From contig NC_059433.1 of the NCBI RefSeq assembly GCF_021028975.2, positions 25,668,001-25,732,000 on the forward strand: DNA of 64,000 bases, read 5' to 3'. Positions 2,579-37,900 of this stretch are shown piece by piece; position 1 is the stretch's first letter; every line of letters starts with the position of its first letter. The position numbers and the translations under genes were made by a program. This DNA comes from Sphaerodactylus townsendi (lineage: Eukaryota). The notes beneath the pieces are model-generated. The model had not been told where the DNA came from and searched no databases. It worked only from the letters and a program-made list of their open reading frames with translations.

Positions 2579-3600
2579 ATCTATTGCTGTAGATTTTGCA
2601 TAAAAGTTTCCATGCAGTACATTTTGAATAAGTAAAACCCTGTCTTTTAAAGCATTTGACACACTCCAAAAGAAAAACATTAATACACTTTTTTCAGTTA
2701 TCCTCAATAAGTTAACGATTTCTCCTTTGGAAAAATCAAAGTCCTCAGACATTTTCATGCTAAACACTTTGCCTATCACTTATTACAAAGGGGAAAATAT
2801 TGCATAATTTTTAGTGTACTGCCTGACTTTCCCACAGAAAAACTGGCGGCGGGGGGGGGGGAGTCTTAAAAAAAACCCCAAAGGTGCTATGCCATGTTGG
2901 TTGCACAAACTGGCCTGAAGCCAAACCGAAAAGGGTTTAGCGCAGATGTTCCATCACAGAAGGCCTGGTGGTGTTCCACAACTACTTTGTAAATTACCTA
3001 TTTTTGCAATATATTGTATTGAATTGTTTGAGGTATGCATTATACTATTTTAGTGCATTTTTCCTCTAATTTTGTAATTTGTTGGCTGTATATTTTTGTT
3101 TGCTAAGAAGTAAATAAACTATTTCTTTCTATGGCCTGTGCTACTATTATGTGAAAGTAACGGACAAATTCCAAACAGTATACTTTTCCTTCCCTATTGT
3201 AACAGTACTCGTTTGGAGGCTGCTTGCCTGCCTCCACATTGGTTGAGAGTGTCAGTTGTGACTTGACGGCATGTTCCACCAAATTGTAATAGTGGATCCA
3301 ATGCATTTTTGCATGGCTATTTTAAATTTAATGCACCATCCACAAAAATATAACTTTCCTGTACTAAGGAAATCAAATGATGTGCTAAAGATTGGAAGAT
3401 AGAAATTTTTAATAATAAAAGTTAATTATTCCTTATTTTTACAGCTGGTGGCAACAGATCTTATTGATGCTGCTACAAACTCTGATAAGAATTATGTACT
3501 CTTTGCATATCTCTGTTCTAGTAGGAAACAGCCCTTACTGTAAGGTAAAGGACTTATCAAGGCAAGCCTATATTGTTTGCAGACAATAAACTCTCTAAGC

Positions 3601-5135
3601 CCATGATGGCGAACCTATGGCACAGGTGCCAGAGGCGGCACTCAGAGCCCTCTCTGTGGGCACGCGTGCCGTCATCTCCCTCTCCCCCTTGCCCCACCAG
3701 AGGCTGCTGCCAGCAGACGCGTTGTGGGTCAGGCTGCACAGGCTGGCCGTGCACAAGGTGCTCTGCCGGCTGGGACTGAGCTTCAGGAAGGCCCTCTTGA
3801 GTCGACCTGATTGGCTGTACGTACCATCGAGTATCCTGGTAGTACTCATCCTAGTAGTGGAGTTGCTGGGAGAATACCCCCTCTCCTCCACAACGCTTGG
3901 GAGAATGGAGGCTGGCATGCTTTTCTTGGTGAGTAACTTTTGGAATCAAACTAAAACTTTAGGGGTAGGGTTAAAAACGGCAGCCTGAGCGCAGTGGTGG
4001 GATTCAGACGGCTCGCCCTCATTGGGATGAACCATTTGTTAAGGATCCCCCTTCCCTGGGAGAGAGAGAGATGGAGCTTTTAGTGCAGGGAGCCTAGGGC
4101 AGGGAGGAGAGATCTTGCAAGATCCCTAGGCTCGCAGTGCTCAGCAAGATATGCAAACTTAATTTTGCAGAGAGATCTCCTGTCCTGCAAAAAAGTCCAG
4201 ATCTTGCCTGGAGGAGCCCTCTCTGCAAAAGCAAGTTGTCTGCTGGGTTCGCTCCAGTGGCTTTCTCTGATCGTTGCCATTGGAAAGGTGAGGGGGCATC
4301 CAACCAAGCAGGCAGAGGGCAAGTCTGCCTAGCAAGCGGAGTCATACCTTCGCCCTCGGTGCGCTGCCCTGGGAAAAGTGCATCCTCCTTGCACACACAC
4401 AAAAAAGCATCCCTGGGTCCCTCGCTCCTCTGCAGCATGACTTTCAACGCCCAGATTGCATCAAGTCCAAGTTAGCAGCTTGGTGGTGTCTATGACAGAG
4501 GCTGATGCTGCTAACTACTCTGCAATCTGCTTGGGATTCAGGTTTTGGTATCGATTTTGCAGTGTGCTCTTCCTCCCTGGCAGTTTGCAGACTTGCCTGC
4601 AAGTTTGAAAAAGGTTCAGCTTCGCAGATTTCTGGGGAAAGTGAAAAAAAGAATCTGTGGGGAAAGTCTTCCCTTCTTCCTCCACCCCAGCCGCTCCTGT
4701 GGGCTGAGGTGATGCTGTTAGGAAATGGGAAGCTCTTTCAGAGATCGGGAAGGAAGAACTTGTTTTAAAGAGGCTGATGTTTGGGTCCATGTTATCTGTA
4801 ACTGCAACAGGTTGTCTCTGTGTGTGTTGTTTTCTCTCCCTTGCAATCAGTAATGTCTGAAAACTCCCCTTTTGCAACTGGATTTGTATGAGGCTGTCAA
4901 ACTTTAGTCCAAAATAAAGAAACTGTAGATATTAACTATACTAGTCTTTATTGGAAATACTAAAGACCAGGAACAGTAATTGAGGATTCTGAAGACCACA
5001 AGCAAAGTTTGGGCTTAAATTCCCTTGTCCCGTCCCCCGCCCTGCCCCCCTGGCCAAGTGTTGGCATTTGCGATAAACAAGTGGGTTTTGGGTCGCAGTT
5101 TGGGCACTCGGTCTCTAAAAGGTTCGCCATCACTG
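3601..5135. mobile_element. hAT non-autonomous element with captured ~1.4-kb interior (Pack-hAT-like)
   Basis: TIRs ccatgatggcgaacc / ggttcgccatcactg and 8-bp TSD ctctaagc (3593-3600, 5136-5143). The 70-80 bp termini match the elements at 16117 and 30555. Confidence 0.85.
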
Positions 5136-5796
5136 CTCTAAGCTCATCAAATATAGTAAGTGGCTGGGCAATCCAACATTTCCCAACACTGTTTAATATG
5201 ATACATGTATTTAACATGATAAATGTAGGCATCCTTTAAGACAGCCAAATAACTTGGGCAGATGAGGAACTGGGCACCTACACCTTTCTGACCTTAAGAC
5301 ACTATGGTGTTCTTCTCCTTGGCGGAAACCATAGGGATTAGTGGCTGGGAACTCCTGAGGCCAAACGGTCACACAATACCAGCAAATGATGGTTCCTTCT
5401 GATACACAGCAGTACTGGGATAGCCAGTGAGAAGTATCATTGCTATAACACACTTTTACTTTCAGCCTTTAGCTGTAGAAGGGAAAGAGAAGGAAATTGA
5501 CTTATCCCTTTGCTCCCCTTTTCCCCAGCAACTCCACTACTAGGATGAGTACTACCAGGATACTAATAAGAATCAGAGAAAAAGGACACAGGGCTTGCAA
5601 TCTCTATCCACCATCAATTAATGAACAATATTATCAAATTAAAAAATACACAAGTGACTAGGAAGACCCGTATCAACCAGGTAGTTGAGAAGAATTCTGA
5701 AATATAAATATTATAAATATAGTCAGTAGTCTCCTTGATGAAGTAGGCCATTCTAAAAGTATTTGCTATGTCATATACTACAGTAGCAGAATTTTG

Positions 5797-6237
5797 CAGC
5801 AGAGGCATAGTGGTTAAGAGCAGGTGTACTCTAATCTGGAGGAACCAGGTTTGATTCCCCACTCTGCTGCCTGAGTTGTGAAGGCTTATCTCCGTGGTGG
5901 CGAACCTTTGGCACTCTAGATGTTATGGACTACAATTCCCATCAGCCCCTGCCAGCATGGCCAATTGGCCATGCTGGCCGGGGCTGATGGGAATTGTAGT
6001 CCATAACATCTGGAGTGCCAAAGGTTCGCCACCACTGGCTTATCTGGAGAATTCAGATTAGCCTGTACACTCCAACACATGCCAGTTGGGTGACCTAGTC
6101 ACAGTTCTTCAGAGCTCTCTCAGCCCCACCTACCACACAGGGTGTTTGTTGTGAGGGGGGAAGGGAAAGGAGTTTGTAAGCCCCTTTTAGTCTCCTATAG
6201 GAAGGAAAGGGGGGATATAAATCCAACTCTTCTTCTT
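5797..6237 (+). mobile_element. Squam3-like tRNA-derived SINE interrupted by a MITE
   Basis: Box A/B-like head (tagtggttaaga...ggtttgattccc) and (CTT)n tail. Confidence 0.8.
5892..6037. mobile_element. Palindromic hAT MITE nested in the SINE
   Basis: Near-perfect hairpin centred on ggccaattggcc. 8-bp TSD gcttatct. Confidence 0.9.
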
Positions 6238-13666: not shown

Positions 13667-13757
13667 CTGTTTTCTCCCTGCTTGTTTGAAGGCGGAGGAT
13701 TCAGCACTGTTTGATTCCCTTCCATCTCCACAATGCATTTGGTATTTAAATCCAGCT
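13667..13757 (-). CDS. KIF13A: KIF13A coding exon 2 (ELDLNTKCIVEMEGNQTVLNPPPSNKQGENR)
   Basis: Acceptor ttccag|AG and donor AG|gtataa. 91 nt, phase-compatible with exon 1, and the peptide resembles recalled vertebrate KIF13A. No further exon was recognised in 1-13666. Confidence 0.94.
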
Positions 13758-16116: not shown

Positions 16117-16600
16117 CAGTGCTGGCGAACCTTTTCGAGACCGAGTGCCCAAACTGCAACCCAAAACCCACTTATTTATCACAAAGTGCCAACGCAGCAA
16201 TTTAACCTGAATACTGAGGTTTTAGTTTAGAAAAACGCCATTCTGCTGCTACTTGTGAGTAAGCTTGGGGGTAGTCATGGGCCTTTGCTTTCTAGCTAAA
16301 TCGTGGAAACGCCAAACGGTGAATCACGCACCCTGCTGAGGGCTGAAGTGCCCCATTGTCAGCAACTGAGTTTCTACCCTAGGTAAAGGATTGCGCTTGA
16401 AATCTTCCCACAGCAACCAGTGAGGTTAAACAGAACATCAGGTTACCTACATGTCGCGGGGCTCCAGTAGCTCAGGGCTAGGCCTAGATAGGTGGGGGCA
16501 ATTTTCGCCCCCCCCCCCCACGATGAACTCTGCACACGTGCCCACAGAGAGGGCCCTGAGTGCCACCTCTGGCACCCATGCCATAGGTTCGCCATCACTG
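16117..16600. mobile_element. hAT non-autonomous element
   Basis: TIRs cagtgctggcgaacc / ggttcgccatcactg, 8-bp TSD agctatgt. Confidence 0.9.
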
Positions 16601-28554: not shown

Positions 28555-29775
28555 TCATTCTTCCCCAATATTTGAACAAGTGGTATATACTTTTAAAGAA
28601 TGATCCCCCCCGTCCAAGACAATCAGAGAATTATTTGCAGTGTAAGCTAACGCCAAGGGGTAGGAAAGACCCTGTGTAATGATGGGTTTACATACAGGGA
28701 AATCTTCGGGTTTTCCAAGGTCAAATACTGTTTGGTTAGAGGCATCAGTTGCTATAACGTGTCCTTCCTTGTTGAAGGTGACGGCACTGGGATAGAGTTT
28801 GGAAGGAAACACAAGATTCAGGCCAAAACTATCCACCTGGCTGACGAGCTTCATATCTGCACTGAAGACTTTCACTCTGATGCAGCCAAAGCTTGGGCCT
28901 TTTGCCATTAGATGTTCTATTACTGAAATAGCCCCAGAAGCCTGAGAAACGGCCACTTTTCTTGGGTTACACAGATTAGAATACATTTTCCTCACTTCCC
29001 TTAATTCCCCCTTTTTAAAGTCAGCTGTCAAGCGATACAAAATTCCTGCCTCTGAATCGGTCATGACAATATCGTTCTCAGGCGTAGTGTCAAGGCCCCA
29101 GGGCAAAGAGAAGGACTCTGAGATCACAAGCTTGCCTCTGCCATTAAAATCAAACACTTTGACAGAACGGTCTCCACTGTCTGTGACTACAATGTGACCA
29201 TCCAACGTGAAAGTGACATCAGTTGGGTACATAATGTCATTTCCTGCTCCTCCTCTTTCTCCAAACTGTTGCATGCAGCTCCCGTTGAAAGTAAACAGCT
29301 TAATCCTCTTCTTGCCATCGTGGGCCACTGCTATGCAGCCAGACTTCTGACAGACCGCAATACCGGTTGGATTGAGGAGCGTTCCCCATCCTCCAAAGGA
29401 AAGGCCAAATGTTAAGACATGAGATGCTGACACAGCCATATCCTCACCTGTCCCAATCGTCCTTCCAGAAACTGGAGAATGAATAGCCGAAGGGCTCAAT
29501 ATTTCCATCAAGTGCAGCAGCGGCAAACAGTCACTGGTCTCAGAAGATTTGCAAGCTCTTCGGCAAAAAGGACACTCCAACTTAAGATTCCGTGGATGAG
29601 CTAGAGAAGAGACGCATTTCAGGCACATAACATGTCCACATGGCAAGTTTCTTGGCCTACGTATTTTCTGCTGGCTGTATCTTTCAAAGCACACTTTGCA
29701 TTCAAACAGACTGGTCTCTGTCTGATCAACCAGCTTTGCCATGATCTCTACTTTCTCAGTGGCCATGACGGACAT
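28555..29775 (-). CDS. NHLRC1: Malin E3 ubiquitin ligase (RING-HC + NHL repeats), uninterrupted CDS, 406 aa
   Basis: C3HC4 RING (CKVC...CGHVMCLKC...CPFC) followed by NHL repeats (NPTGIAV, YPTDVTF, LPWGLDT, YPLALAY). Lies between KIF13A and TPMT, as in other amniotes. Confidence 0.96.
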   Translation of the reverse strand: MSVMATEKVEIMAKLVDQTETSLFECKVCFERYSQQKIRRPRNLPCGHVMCLKCVSSLAHPRNLKLECPFCRRACKSSETSDCLPLLHLMEILSPSAIHSPVSGRTIGTGEDMAVSASHVLTFGLSFGGWGTLLNPTGIAVCQKSGCIAVAHDGKKRIKLFTFNGSCMQQFGERGGAGNDIMYPTDVTFTLDGHIVVTDSGDRSVKVFDFNGRGKLVISESFSLPWGLDTTPENDIVMTDSEAGILYRLTADFKKGELREVRKMYSNLCNPRKVAVSQASGAISVIEHLMAKGPSFGCIRVKVFSADMKLVSQVDSFGLNLVFPSKLYPSAVTFNKEGHVIATDASNQTVFDLGKPEDFPVCKPIITQGLSYPLALAYTANNSLIVLDGGDHSLKVYTTCSNIGEE

Positions 29776-30554: not shown

Positions 30555-31043
30555 CAATGATGGTGAACCTTTTTAAGACCGAGTGCCCAAATTGCAACCC
30601 AAACCCCAGTTATTTATCGCAAAGTGCCAACTCAACAATTTAACCTGAATGCTGAGGTTTTAGTTTAGAAAAAAACGGTTGGCTCCCGCTTCCTCCGCCT
30701 CTACTCCACTCCGGGAAAGTAGGCCAGCCTGCTCTAGCCCTCCAGCAAGTCCCAGTAACTGGGCTCTGTGCCTCCCTAGCATCTCTGCTCCTCCCTCTGC
30801 ACACACCCCCCCCCTGGGCAGAAGCCACCTGGAGCACAGTGGGTGCACTAGGTCTGGGCTAGCTGTGTCCCTCCCTGCTCACCACGGTGTGCGCATGTCG
30901 TGCTCAGTGGCCCAGGCCAGCCTAGATGTGGGGGGGGGAGGGTGATTTTCCACCCCCCATATGACGAACTCTGTGTGTGCGTGCCCACAGAGAGGGCTCC
31001 GAGTGCCACCTCTGGCACCCGTGCCATAGGTTCGCCATCACTG
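30555..31043. mobile_element. hAT non-autonomous element (duplicated at ~35747-36225)
   Basis: Same termini as the 16117 element but a different interior. Imperfect TSD (a/t)tatagtc. Confidence 0.85.
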
Positions 31044-33880: not shown

Positions 33881-33993
33881 CCGTGGTGGCGAACCTTTGG
33901 CACTCCAGATGTTATGGACTTCAATTCCCATCAGCCCCTTCCAGCATGGCCATGCTGGAAGGGGCTGATGGGAATTGTAGTCCATAACATCTG
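33881..33993. mobile_element. Palindromic hAT MITE truncated at the duplication junction
   Basis: Same family as 5892-6037. The right TIR is missing here and present at the end of unit 2 (~39253). Confidence 0.85.
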
Positions 33994-34952
33994 AGGAAAC
34001 ACAAGATTCAGGCCAAAACTATCCACCTGGCTGACGAGCTTCATATCTGCACTGAAGACTTTCACTCTGATGCAGCCAAAGCTTGGGCCTTTTGCCATTA
34101 GATGTTCTATTACTGAAATAGCCCCAGAAGCCTGAGAAACGGCCACTTTTCTTGGGTTACACAGATTAGAATACATTTTCCTCACTTCCCTTAATTCCCC
34201 CTTTTTAAAGTCAGCTGTCAAGCGATACAAAATTCCTGCCTCTGAATCGGTCATGACAATATCGTTCTCGAAGTGTCGAGCCCAGGGCAAAGAAGGTCTG
34301 AGATCTGAAAGCTTGCCTCTGCCATTAAAATCAAACACTTTGACAGAACGGTCTCCACTGTCTGTGACTACAATGTGACCATCCAACGTGAAAGTGACAT
34401 CAGTTGGGTACATAATGTCATTTCCTGCTCCTCCTCTTTCTCCAAACTGTTGCATGCAGCTCCCGTTGAAAGTAAACAGCTTAATCCTCTTCTTGCCATC
34501 ATTGGGCCCACTGCTGTGTGAACTTCTGACAGACCGCAATACCGGTTGGATTGAGGAGCGTTCCCCATCCTCCAAAGGAAAGGCCAAATGTTAAGACATG
34601 AGATGCTGACACAGCCATATCCTCACCTGTCCCAATCGTCCTTCCAGAAACTGGAGAATGAATAGCCGAAGGGCTCAATATTTCCATCAAGAGATTACGC
34701 TGACAAACAGTCACTGGTCTCAGAGATTTGCAAACTCTTGACCCAAAAGGACACCTCAACAAGATTCCGTGGATGAGCTAGAGAAGAGACGCATTTCAGG
34801 CACATAACATGTCCACATGGCAAGTTTCTTGGCCTACGTATTTTCTGCTGGCTGTATCTTTCAAAGCACACTTTGCATTCAAACAGACTGGTCTCTGTCT
34901 GATCAACCAGCTTTGCCATGATCTCTACTTTCTCAGTGGCCATGACGGACAT
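33994..34952 (-). pseudogene. NHLRC1: Second, frameshifted and 3'-truncated NHLRC1 copy (pseudogene or false duplication)
   Basis: Near-identical to 28804-29775 but broken into ORFs 34695-34952, 34499-34762 and 33931-34587. Lacks the last ~83 codons and abuts a MITE at 33993. Confidence 0.8.
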
Positions 34953-37900
34953 TTATACAACTCTAAGAGGATTTCTGCTTACACTCCGCAGTGGTGCTTT
35001 ATGCCATCTGGTCACATTGGGTGGTCACAAGATCCGTTTACATCAGAGGTCAATGAATTCTAAGACAGGCGTCCATGTGCAATATGTGGTTGTCGTTTGC
35101 TGCCCTCTTCTGGAAACCTGATATAATACAACAGGTTCAGAAGACCCATCAGCCAGGAGAGCTCTAGAAAACGATTAAATCTTTCCTTCTGTGTTTTACT
35201 TTTAACTTGTTTTTATTTTTTAACTTAAAATGGATGTAAATATGATTCTTTCAACTGTCATGTACCGATATAATTGTATTCATGACAATTCAGTTCTGCA
35301 AGATAGATATCTGAATGCTGCCAACAGGGGCCCTTTTGTTTATCAAGGATCAATGCAAGGTTAAAGTCCACTAAAACAAATAAAAGAGATGGGAAGAGAT
35401 TTGATTTTCAAAAAAAAAAGTGCCTCCAACTCTGCTTTAACAACACTAGCAGTGTCGTAACCAACCTCATAAAGGCTCCGCCTTTTAAAATCAATGCTAT
35501 TGTCAGAATACACAAAGTTGTTTAGAAAGTTTAAAAATCTTTTGACTAAGGGAACTTAAGTTTGGAGGACAAGATTTTTTAAAAATTTATTATAAATTGC
35601 CTCAAATTGTATGTTGATATGTTAAAAAAGGTTTAATAAACAGGGGCAACTTAGGCTGGGCTAGAAGTTTAACAAACAATGAAGAAATGTGATGGAGAAG
35701 ATTGACAGAAGGATATGGGCAGGAGGTCATTTGGGTATATATAGTCCAATGATGGTGAACCTTTTTAAGACCGAGTGCCCAAATTGCAACCCAAACCCCA
35801 GTTATTTATCGCAAAGTGCCAACTCAACAATTTAACCTGAATGCTGAGGTTTTAGTTTAGAAAAAAACGGTTGGCTCCCGCTTCCTCCGCCCTACCCACT
35901 CGAGCAGGGGCCAGCCTGCTCTAGCCTCCAGCAAGTCCTGTGTGCACCGCTCTGTGCCTCTCTAGCATCTCTGCCTCCTCTGCACACACCCCCCCCCCCG
36001 GGCAGAAGCCACCTGGAGCACAGGCACTAGGCCCGCCAGCCAAGTCCTCCCTGCTCACCACGGTGTGCGCATGTCGTGCTCAGTGGCCCAGGCCAGCCTA
36101 GATGTGGGGGGGGGAGGGTGATTTTCCACCCCCCATATGACGAACTCTGTGTGTGCGTGCCCACAGAGAGGAGGGGCTCCCGAAAGTGCCACCTCTGGCA
36201 CCCGTGCCATGGGATTATGTCACTGATTATAGTCTATCTGTATGGTATTGACCTTTGTCGTGTAAGTAAAATAGATGCCTGAGGGAGGAGAAAATGGGAA
36301 TAAGAAACAAGGACATTTGATTTTTTTAAATCTGATTTTCAAGCCATCGCCAATTTACATCCATTACTGCCCACCTAAGTGTCTCAACTGAGAAATTGCT
36401 GCCTCATGGCTTTCTCTCTGGTTTCTATGTCTTGGAAAAGAGGAGGCCTGTTGGGATTGTCTCCAGAAAAGATGACATTTCAAAGCAACTGGCTTAGATA
36501 GAGGCCACCTCGAAAGCTGCCAGGCAAACAGTCTAGCAGCTAACCAAACAGCTTGTGAAAGAAGCTCCTAAGGATCTTCCATGATGTGGCCAACTGATAG
36601 GCAGGAAAGCCACTTGACTCACACAATGAGACTTATAGTATTCATAACAAAGATGAATTAAATAAAATAAGAAAACTAACTAGCTGTTCAGGACTGCTAA
36701 ATGCAGCATACTTCTTTTTGCTAAGGCGGAGAATAACTGCAGATTGGAGGAAAGAGGGCCACCCTTATTTCAGCCTAGCTGAATTGTTTCTTACTGGTTG
36801 ATTCGGGAATGCTGCTCACTTGCAGATAAGCAGGGAGAACTGTTTTGTTCTTCTGAAAGCCAGTGTTGTGTAGTCGTTAAGAGTGGCAGACTCTGATCTG
36901 GAGAACTGGGGCCAATTCTCCACAGTCGATTAATCCCGTGATACTCACACGAAATAGTCTTTGCCGAACCTGCTTGAAAGTACTACTTTTTTCAAAAAAC
37001 ACGTCTTTGATCCAGTTTGGAGGGGAAGATCGAGGGTCTAATCTTTGAAGTTCATGGCTTCCCACCGTGGAGCATGGCGCCAAATGCCCACAACCAATCG
37101 AATGCGGCGCAGTGCTGTTCTCGCCATACGAGAGCGAGGCAACCAGCCAGAAATTTGAGCAGGGAGACGTGCTGGCTATTGAGCCGCGTTTTTTGCAGGA
37201 GAAAAAAAAGGTCCTGCCAATCAGAAGAGACCTGCCAAGGCGATCATGTGGTAGTGGAGATTGTTACATTTCTTGAACCCAAGATAGGCCTAGATGTCTT
37301 CACTGGAAACATGCTGCGGTGGGGCGATTGAAACCTCGATGAAAAGATGCGGTTTATTTTCAAACTTGGTTTGATCTGAATTGAATTTCCTGAGTGGGGA
37401 GTTGACCTGGGTTTTGATTCCCCATTCTTCCATCTGAAGTCAGCCACCGCGACGGGTAAACCACCTGCAAATGCCTTTTTTTGCCTGAAAATCCTACAAG
37501 ACCACCATAAGTCAGCTGTGAAGCGACGGCACCGAGCACACACACACTACACAAGTTGCTTCAATCAGCTTTTCAACAGCCATGCTACAGGAATCCTGCT
37601 GGGAAGGCTGCCTTCATTTTTTCAGGGCAGAAATGCCTGTAACAGCTGAATACAAGTAGATATTGAACAGGTGCAGCCTTCTCAGCTGTATGTGAGCGTC
37701 ATTAACAGGGAAAATTGTTCCTAGTTATGTCTGCACACCACTTGACTTCTAAATGCATTGACATCCTGTCAGGAAAAAACCAATCATAATGACTGCAGAT
37801 CTTGTAACAAGGGAGAGGGTGGGAAATCAATTAGCACTGTCTGCCCCTCTTCATCCTCCTTTGTCTCAGGCAGGTCCAAAATACAGCCCTAGACATCCTA

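What the first reader, a model, noticed from the sequence alone, without database searches (positions are those of the whole stretch)
3701..3928. Intact, frame-preserving 228-nt exon inside the Pack-hAT
Seen: polypyrimidine acceptor ctccctctcccccttgccccaccag|, strong donor TTG|gtgagtaa, and exactly 76 open codons in phase 0 (RLLPADALWVRLHRLAVHKVLCRLGLSFRKALLSRPDWLYVPSSILVVLILVVELLGEYPLSSTTLGRMEAGMLFL). It has many G/C-ending codons and a hydrophobic stretch; the other two plus frames contain stops. It is antisense to KIF13A, so it would not splice into KIF13A here. Inference: a captured symmetric host exon that could exon-shuffle into other genes when inserted in sense. I cannot identify the parent gene.
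Basis: partly seen in the sequence, partly recalled or inferred. Interest (0 to 1): 0.7.

Follow-up and report, generated by a model that had tools for sequence, protein, structure and literature searches.

The report
Patchwork false exon in gecko transposon
The apparent 228-base exon occurs in this form in only one of the examined copies of a gecko jumping-gene family; its front part likely descends from the first exons of two host genes that were fused inside another transposon and re-captured, its back part was completed by a short insert copied from neighbouring DNA plus point changes, so it is likely not a working exon.

Summary
The sequence features are real: acceptor, donor and 76 open codons. 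They do not form one captured host exon. The stretch lies in a non-autonomous Buster-type hAT (3601-5135) with at least 150 relatives. None of 71 other copies is an open, symmetric exon: 57 have TAA at codon 40, and none has the GTGAG donor or the hydrophobic stretch. That stretch is a 41-nt inverted copy of unique flank 1.65 kb away, likely gap-filling repair. The GC3-rich front does have host parents. Codons 12-21 trace, through other hAT elements, to a DUF4630-like first exon. Codons 24-32 (perhaps to 39) trace to ESYT2 exon 1. Both keep their native frame. They were likely fused in a second hAT family and then re-captured. Relatives link this unit to a transposase frame that has its own splice acceptor, so the family's inner GTAAGT donor may end a 5' leader exon (untested; no RNA available). 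This scan noted other Pack-hATs in this genome before; its look-ups returned nothing on this family.

The parts
3593..3600 (.). left 8-bp target-site duplication CTCTAAGC
   Evidence: identical at 5136-5143; 28 of 31 full-length copies have 6 or more of 8 matching, with T and A at positions 4 and 5 in 30 and 29 of 31
3601..5135 (+). non-autonomous Buster-type hAT, subfamily B, 1535 nt; deletion derivative of a cargo-bearing transposase element
   Evidence: 5.8% (84 of 1459 sites) from the subfamily-B majority
3601..3616 (+). 5' terminal inverted repeat (14 of 16 complementary to 5120-5135)
   Evidence: AG in 65 of 71 copies; H-like motifs (weak: an 8-nt match)
3733..3763 (+). codons 12-21, likely derived in frame from the first coding exon of a DUF4630-like gene (L149, G000:C12 near 47.232 Mb) through H-type hAT carriers, after a 21-nt deletion
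   Evidence: profile of the gene and 7 carriers hits here at E 4.8e-4 in 64 kb, reversed control blank; 42 of 49 family copies at E<0.01; carriers 67-76% to the gene over about 350 nt; DUF4630 E 0.0029, below cut-off
3770..3818 (+). codons 24-32 (core 3770-3795) and, colinearly, up to codon 39: likely derived in frame from ESYT2 exon 1 (L117, G000:C11:66518743-66519069) through H-type carriers
   Evidence: family majority 23 of 26 identical to the exon, P 0.0005 against codon shuffles of that exon; window copy 16 of 17; carriers 72-76% over 180-245 nt; ESYT2 100%; an ESYT2-only profile is not significant
3817..3822 (+). family-wide inner donor GTAAGT, here GTACGT; the same A-to-C change at 3820 removes the in-frame TAA
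   Evidence: GTAAGT in 50 of 71 and TAA in 57 of 71 copies
3830..3870 (+). 41-nt inverted copy of 5524-5564 (codons 44-57, the hydrophobic stretch); its first 4 nt (AGTA) were already in the element; with an 11-nt loss and 6 further nt (3871-3876) it turns the commonest 196 nt into 228
   Evidence: 100% identity; only two places in the genome; absent from 71 of 71 copies; junction contigs in organisms A and B
3929..3934 (+). donor GTGAGT seen only in this copy; relatives mostly read GCATGT, GCGTGT or GTGTGT
   Evidence: 0 of 71 GTRAG, 17 of 71 GT
5120..5135 (-). 3' terminal inverted repeat; the last 78 nt match the 3' end of transposase-bearing elements
5136..5143 (.). right target-site duplication
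5524..5564 (-). single-copy intron DNA that served as template for the insert
   Evidence: organism C shows it with its own flanks on both sides
13667..13757 (-). KIF13 exon 2 (91 nt); the element lies antisense in the following intron

Best explanation
The 228-nt unit is a layered composite seen in only one of the examined transposon copies and is likely an unspliced pseudo-exon, not a captured host exon. Step 1 (shown by alignment): hAT elements of another family (H; ends CAGAGGCG, 8-bp duplications) carry decayed pieces of a DUF4630-like first exon and of ESYT2 exon 1, and several carry the two joined. Step 2 (inferred): the join was in frame, and a 60-85-nt piece across it was re-captured into the 5' region of a Buster-type hAT that still had a transposase. 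Step 3 (shown): deletion derivatives A and B of that element spread to at least 150 places with a 116-nt unit that ends in GTAAGT and an in-frame TAA. Step 4 (shown as sequence, mechanism inferred): after insertion in KIF13 intron 2, a break in this copy was likely patched by microhomology-primed copying of 41 nt from 1.65 kb away. One point change removed both the stop and the old donor, and further changes made a new donor. The codon-like bias is inherited from the two host exons; the symmetry and the length are accidents.
For: 0 of 71 other copies form the exon; TAA in 57, GTRAG in 0, insert in 0. The 41-mer is 100% identical to unique flank and occurs twice in the genome, while the element is 5.8% from its subfamily majority, so the insert is younger than the insertion. 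Contigs of two organisms hold the insert junctions; a third shows only the flank copy. Graded series from gene to full carriers (L166, L168, L169), deleted carriers (L132, L171, L174), fused carriers (L112, L116, L119, L125, L127, L129) and this family. L112 matches family copies across its junction at genome-wide E 4e-7 to 1e-5. Changes in codons 1-40 peculiar to this copy are 6 replacement codons plus stop-to-Tyr against 1 synonymous. No protein contains the peptide, although a library searched holds a 100% match to this genome's ESYT2 exon.
Against: A strict acceptor-3n-open-donor unit of this kind was absent from about 990 kb of other loci, and three independent changes had to coincide here, which is what selection for an exon would also look like. 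The ESYT2 piece is short: an ESYT2-only profile does not reach significance on the window (E 1 to 9), so that link rests on the intermediates. The window piece matches the DUF4630-like gene directly at only 17 of 23 nt. The origins of 3701-3732 and of the sequence after 3818 were not found. The 71 copies include one H-family locus (L098) and about four with unrelated 3' sequence; 15 of 86 loci were dropped for not spanning both ends.
Confidence: 0.8

Rival explanations
1. The family-level 116-120-nt unit is, or was, the 5' non-coding leader exon of the element's own transposase transcript: its GTAAGT donor would splice to the acceptor 24 nt before the transposase ATG. Sister lineages would use other captured GC-rich modules in the same slot. 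This can hold together with the best explanation.
For: L237 runs 5' repeat, exon unit, interior, acceptor, ATG and 119 nt of transposase. L236 has the unit upstream of an uninterrupted 645-codon transposase frame. L207/L208 links interior B to a 644-codon frame. Sister loci with the same ends and 85-92% identical transposase DNA carry at least three unrelated 5' cargos, most with GTAAG or GTAGG motifs. An acceptor just upstream of the transposase frame was found in 8 of 9 cases by Cosby et al. (passage seen).
Against: In both transposase-linked copies that carry the unit, the donor is dead (GGAAGT in L236, GAAAGT in L237). No null model was run for donor motifs in the sister cargos. No host source was found for the sister cargo tested (16 hits, 12 inspected). 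Donor retention in 50 of 68 copies is about what neutral decay at 5% per site gives.
Confidence: 0.3
2. This copy has been exonised: the insert and the point changes were kept because the 228 nt are spliced into an antisense or non-coding plus-strand transcript in KIF13 intron 2.
For: Best exon-like unit in the window and none like it in 990 kb. The insert is shared unchanged by two organisms whose flanks differ by about 2-3%.
Against: Replacement changes outnumber synonymous ones 7 to 1. No predicted protein holds the peptide. Organism B differs from the window just upstream of 3814. No neighbouring plus-strand exon was identified.
Confidence: 0.1
3. One reading: one intact symmetric exon captured from a single host gene and spread by the family.
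For: Codon-like GC pattern in the chosen frame; host-derived pieces are present.
Against: searches (0 of 71 copies; flank-derived insert), two unlinked parents that are both first exons.
Confidence: 0.02
4. Codons 1-39 are a fragment of an IS630/Tc1-type winged helix-turn-helix, or the match to the two host genes is chance.
For: ESM Atlas features put the family peptide near HTH_33 clusters at 0.94. The direct DNA matches to the two genes are short.
Against: No Pfam match for 8 versions at E up to 10. The PF13592 genome search gave one sub-threshold hit elsewhere and none at a family copy. No PDB hit. Plasmid and phage hits have E 1 and 7, and the plasmid hit is antisense to a hypothetical gene. 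The DNA series to two conserved host exons explains the frame.
Confidence: 0.05

Closest known systems
Animal Pack-TIRs, multicopy type, e.g. Pack-hAT-N8_XT with 291 bp of the CAPSL 5' UTR (Tan et al. 2021, PMC8277862; passages seen)
   Same: hAT ends, distinct target-site duplications, host 5' sequence as cargo, distant parent loci.
   Different: At least 150 copies here against 3 to 5 in the frog examples. The host part is only 60-85 nt, comes from two genes and likely arrived second-hand from another hAT family. Relatives still carry a transposase frame.
Single-copy Pack-TIRs made by transposition-independent gap filling (same paper)
   Same: Filler copied from nearby (most within 5 kb), microhomology at a breakpoint, after insertion, inside the element: the 41-nt insert fits each point.
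   Different: 41 nt is far below their median of 224 bp, and it sits on top of an older multicopy cargo.
Polymerase-theta templated insertions (PMC7165422; passages seen)
   Same: Microhomology-primed, inverted, with extra junction bases that may be a second round of copying.
   Different: Their first tracts rarely exceed 10 bp and come from DNA flanking the break; here the tract is 37-41 nt from 1.65 kb away, so the enzyme is not assigned.
HelibatN3 Helitron with NUBPL promoter, coding start and splice donor (PMC4778049; passages seen)
   Same: Mobile host first-exon DNA with a donor site.
   Different: Helitron rather than hAT; shown there to splice into host genes; here no splicing is shown and the candidate partner is the element's own acceptor.
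Host-transposase fusion genes (Cosby et al., 10.1101/2020.05.07.082677; passages seen)
   Same: Acceptor immediately upstream of the transposase frame.
   Different: There the host exon is at the insertion site; here a host-derived unit lies inside the element, and splicing it would give a non-coding leader.

Membership tests
hAT superfamily, Buster family | short terminal inverted repeats and 8-bp target-site duplication | tested here: met
   28 of 31 copies
hAT superfamily, Buster family | target consensus nnnTAnnn (PMC3517528, passage seen) | tested here: met
   T in 30 and A in 29 of 31
hAT superfamily, Buster family | cognate transposase with hAT dimerisation domain sharing the ends | tested here: met
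   L207 frame: Dimer_Tnp_hAT E 1.8e-6, Spin-doc zinc finger E 1.3e-4 below cut-off; same 3' end
hAT superfamily, Buster family | transposase groups with Buster clade in a tree | not tested
   no tree was built
Multicopy Pack-TIR | several copies with distinct target-site duplications | tested here: met
Multicopy Pack-TIR | internal non-TE sequence with an identifiable parent not flanked by the TE | tested here: met
   two CpG-island first exons, L117 and L149; indirect for this family, direct for H carriers
Multicopy Pack-TIR | Tan et al. scan thresholds (BLAT score 100, identity 90%) | tested here: not met
   pieces are 26-49 nt; carriers are 67-76% identical to the genes; thresholds read
Gap-filling Pack-TIR (41-nt insert) | nearby template, microhomology, single copy, later than the insertion | tested here: met
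Captured symmetric cassette exon | colinear homology to one internal host exon with its own splice sites | tested here: not met
Captured symmetric cassette exon | boundaries and frame shared by the family | tested here: not met
   0 of 71
Captured symmetric cassette exon | spliced in RNA | not testable with these tools
   no RNA holder listed
IS630/Tc1 winged HTH (PF13592) | profile match | tested here: not met
Transposase leader exon | donor upstream of an acceptor before the transposase ATG in one element | tested here: inconclusive
   order present in L236 and L237 but the donor is mutated in both

The most novel reading that the evidence does not exclude
This gecko hAT lineage has a swappable 5' slot in front of a transposase that carries its own splice acceptor. 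Different sublineages fill the slot with different captured GC-rich exon-and-donor modules that are passed between hAT families, and use them as leader exon or promoter for the transposase. In this sublineage the module contains an in-frame fusion of two host first exons assembled in another transposon.
Probability: 0.25. Interest if true: 0.75.

Novelty: new variant of a known kind. Interest (0 to 1): 0.45.

Why it matters
As an exon the finding is ordinary: a pseudo-exon made by decay and repair. Its history is more unusual. It shows host coding pieces from two unlinked genes joined in frame inside one transposon family, handed to a second family and amplified to at least 150 copies. [quoted passage not shown] If the unit served as the transposase leader, capture would benefit the element itself, which could explain why some Pack elements become abundant; this is testable with RNA and minigenes.

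Tried and rejected
Protein searches with the 76-mer: no Pfam family; none of 282 candidates among longer proteins (near and shorter lengths not searched with that tool); 2 hits among 1.84 billion representatives, both tandem-repeat artefacts; no Atlas hit. Family 40-mer: none of 77 candidates. HTH_33 lead rejected. Selection on the family frame: substitution rates at non-CpG codon positions are 0.053/0.036/0.050 in 49 copies, with no third-position excess; the crude pN/pS of 0.63 ignores transition bias and was not used. RNA: no RNA holder listed, which says nothing about expression. Contig holes were not used: organism B has no laid contig with the window's base at 3932, but organism A also lacks one at 3725; absence of the insert in organism C is likewise only suggestive. 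Assembly artefact rejected: junction contigs in three runs, and a collapsed 41-nt contig at higher depth in two; several overlaps are 30 letters, just under the tool's bridging rule. Host source of the sister-lineage cargo not found. The host source of the sequence after 3818 was not searched, because family copies fill the scored candidates. A first copy-classification script had a filter error and was replaced. Paper searches for ESYT2 with transposon, captured and hAT and for gecko, non-autonomous, hAT, gene fragment and capture gave 0; the terminal repeat occurs in one unrelated snake microsatellite paper (listing only). These cover open-access text only; no repeat library (Repbase, Dfam) could be searched, and supplements were not read.

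Full report
Observation. Window 3701-3928 is 228 nt and translates to the quoted peptide without a stop. The acceptor, the donor and the closed alternative plus frames are as described; one minus frame is open too. Open frames of this length are common: 160 in the window, 13 at this element. The GC-rich third positions of codons 1-39 (0.82) are not explained by shuffling, and a strict exon-like combination was found once in the window and never in about 990 kb of other loci, under criteria chosen afterwards.

The element. It spans 3601-5135 with the duplication CTCTAAGC. Of 31 full-length copies, 28 keep a duplication of 6 or more of 8 bases, with TA in the middle, the Buster signature. A peptide search scored 150 of 289 candidate places, all at E below 1e-10. 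Two subfamilies share the first 535 and last 78 nt and differ inside.

The exon is not a family feature. Of 86 distinct other loci, 71 span both boundaries. Among them 57 have TAA at codon 40, 50 have an inner GTAAGT donor at 3817, 0 have GTRAG at 3929, 0 have the insert, and 0 combine AG, GT, 3n and an open frame (the set includes one H-family locus and about four with foreign 3' parts). The commonest lengths are 196 and 195 nt. In the window copy one change at 3820 removes both the stop and the inner donor. The changes peculiar to it in codons 1-40 are six replacement codons and stop-to-Tyr against one synonymous change, so the peptide shows no purifying selection. No protein search found it.

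The hydrophobic stretch. 3830-3870 is a perfect reverse complement of 5524-5564, outside the element, and the 41-mer occurs only at these two places. Its first four bases were already in the element; 11 nt were lost and 6 added, giving +32 nt. Contigs of organisms A and B hold the junctions; organism C shows only the flank copy. The element is 5.8% from its subfamily majority, so the insert came later. This fits the gap-filling model for single-copy Pack-TIRs: nearby template, microhomology, after insertion (PMC8277862, passages). It is longer and more distant than typical polymerase-theta tracts (PMC7165422, passages), so the pathway is inferred only loosely.

Parents of the front part. Two hits of a pattern search lacked the family's ends and led to a second hAT family, H, about 0.9-1.0 kb with ends CAGAGGCG and 7 of 8 duplications in three copies. 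It shares 54 nt with 3733-3786 at 78-87%. Searching with an H member returned a CpG-island exon, L117, identical to a gecko record named extended synaptotagmin-2 and conserved in reptiles and birds. Five H-type elements carry 180-245 nt of it at 72-76%, with its donor. A weaker hit, L149, is a second CpG-island exon with a sub-threshold DUF4630 match (the human gene C2orf72 is recalled as this family). Other H-type elements carry about 350 nt of it at 67-76%. The alignment shows a series: full carriers, carriers with a 21-nt deletion, carriers fused to ESYT2, and this family. A profile of the first gene and its unfused carriers hits 3733-3763 at E 4.8e-4 in the window with a blank reversed control. 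The ESYT2 link is weaker by itself: 23 of 26 nt for the family majority, no significant profile hit, but colinear with the fused carriers up to 3818. The order of transfer from H to this family is inferred from H copies being more diverged from each other (mostly 70-79%) than this family's (mostly 82-93%) and from H holding the longer pieces.

Link to a transposase. A 644-codon frame with the hAT dimerisation domain lies downstream of an interior-B match and ends in the same terminus. An acceptor sits 24 nt before its ATG. L237 has the 5' repeat, the exon unit, interior A, that acceptor and the first 119 nt of the frame. L236 has the unit upstream of an uninterrupted 645-codon frame. Subfamilies A and B are therefore deletion derivatives of a cargo-bearing element. 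Sister loci with the same ends carry at least three other GC-rich 5' cargos. Against this role, the donor is mutated in both L236 and L237, the sister cargo tested had no host source among 16 hits, and no RNA was available.

Rejected lead. The Atlas placed the family peptide near HTH_33. Pfam, a genome search with that family, PDB, plasmids and phages gave no support.

Comparison and verdict. The element works like a multicopy Pack-TIR with a later gap-filling patch. It meets the hAT/Buster tests that were run and fails the tests for a captured cassette exon. Two searches of the open literature found nothing on this cargo; repeat libraries could not be searched. Earlier notes of this scan describe other Pack-hATs in this genome, unchecked here; look-ups by sequence and words for this family were blank. 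The exon is most likely an accident (0.8). The serial, two-gene, in-frame capture is a new variant of a known kind, and the leader-slot reading remains open (0.25-0.3). Interest 0.45.

Noticed in passing
L236 (G000:C885:1102.2-1106.5 kb) and L207/L208 (G000:C3:118802.1-118809.2 kb, minus): hAT copies with uninterrupted 645- and 644-codon transposase frames; L207's 5' region holds a LINE insertion and lacks the 5' end within 6.7 kb.
   Followed up: partly
L238, L239, L242, L243; L244, L245; L246, L247; L248: Same termini and related transposase or native region, but each group has a different GC-rich 5' cargo; L246/L247 has a tandem array of about 130 nt with a GGTAAGC motif in most units.
   Followed up: partly
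L112, L116, L119, L121, L125, L127, L129, L166-L174: H-type hAT network carrying long pieces of the DUF4630-like exon, of ESYT2 exon 1 with its donor, or both fused; a better subject for dating the captures than the window copy.
   Followed up: partly
L260-L264: The donor-bearing module of the L238 lineage also occurs in elements without this family's termini, suggesting module exchange between families.
   Followed up: no
L042:893-930 and 1785-1822: A 38-nt perfect copy of element-internal sequence lies in the flank about 70 nt before the element: possibly a templated insertion in the opposite direction (1 such case in 86 loci with short flanks).
   Followed up: no
window 28558-29775 and 33934-34952 (minus): An intact 406-codon RING/NHL-type frame (NHLRC1, recalled) and a second, frameshifted copy about 5 kb away, with duplicated flanking repeats; tandem duplication or assembly error.
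   Followed up: no
window 3991-4040: Degenerate stretch resembling the end of a third hAT family (motif recalled, not tested).
   Followed up: no
window 4820-4851 (plus): A second acceptor-like pyrimidine tract inside interior B.
   Followed up: no
window 16117-16600, 30555-31043, 35747-36213: Three short elements of about 480 nt with the same termini as the studied family.
   Followed up: no
window 5894-6035: Perfect 142-nt hairpin element with related termini nested in another repeat.
   Followed up: no
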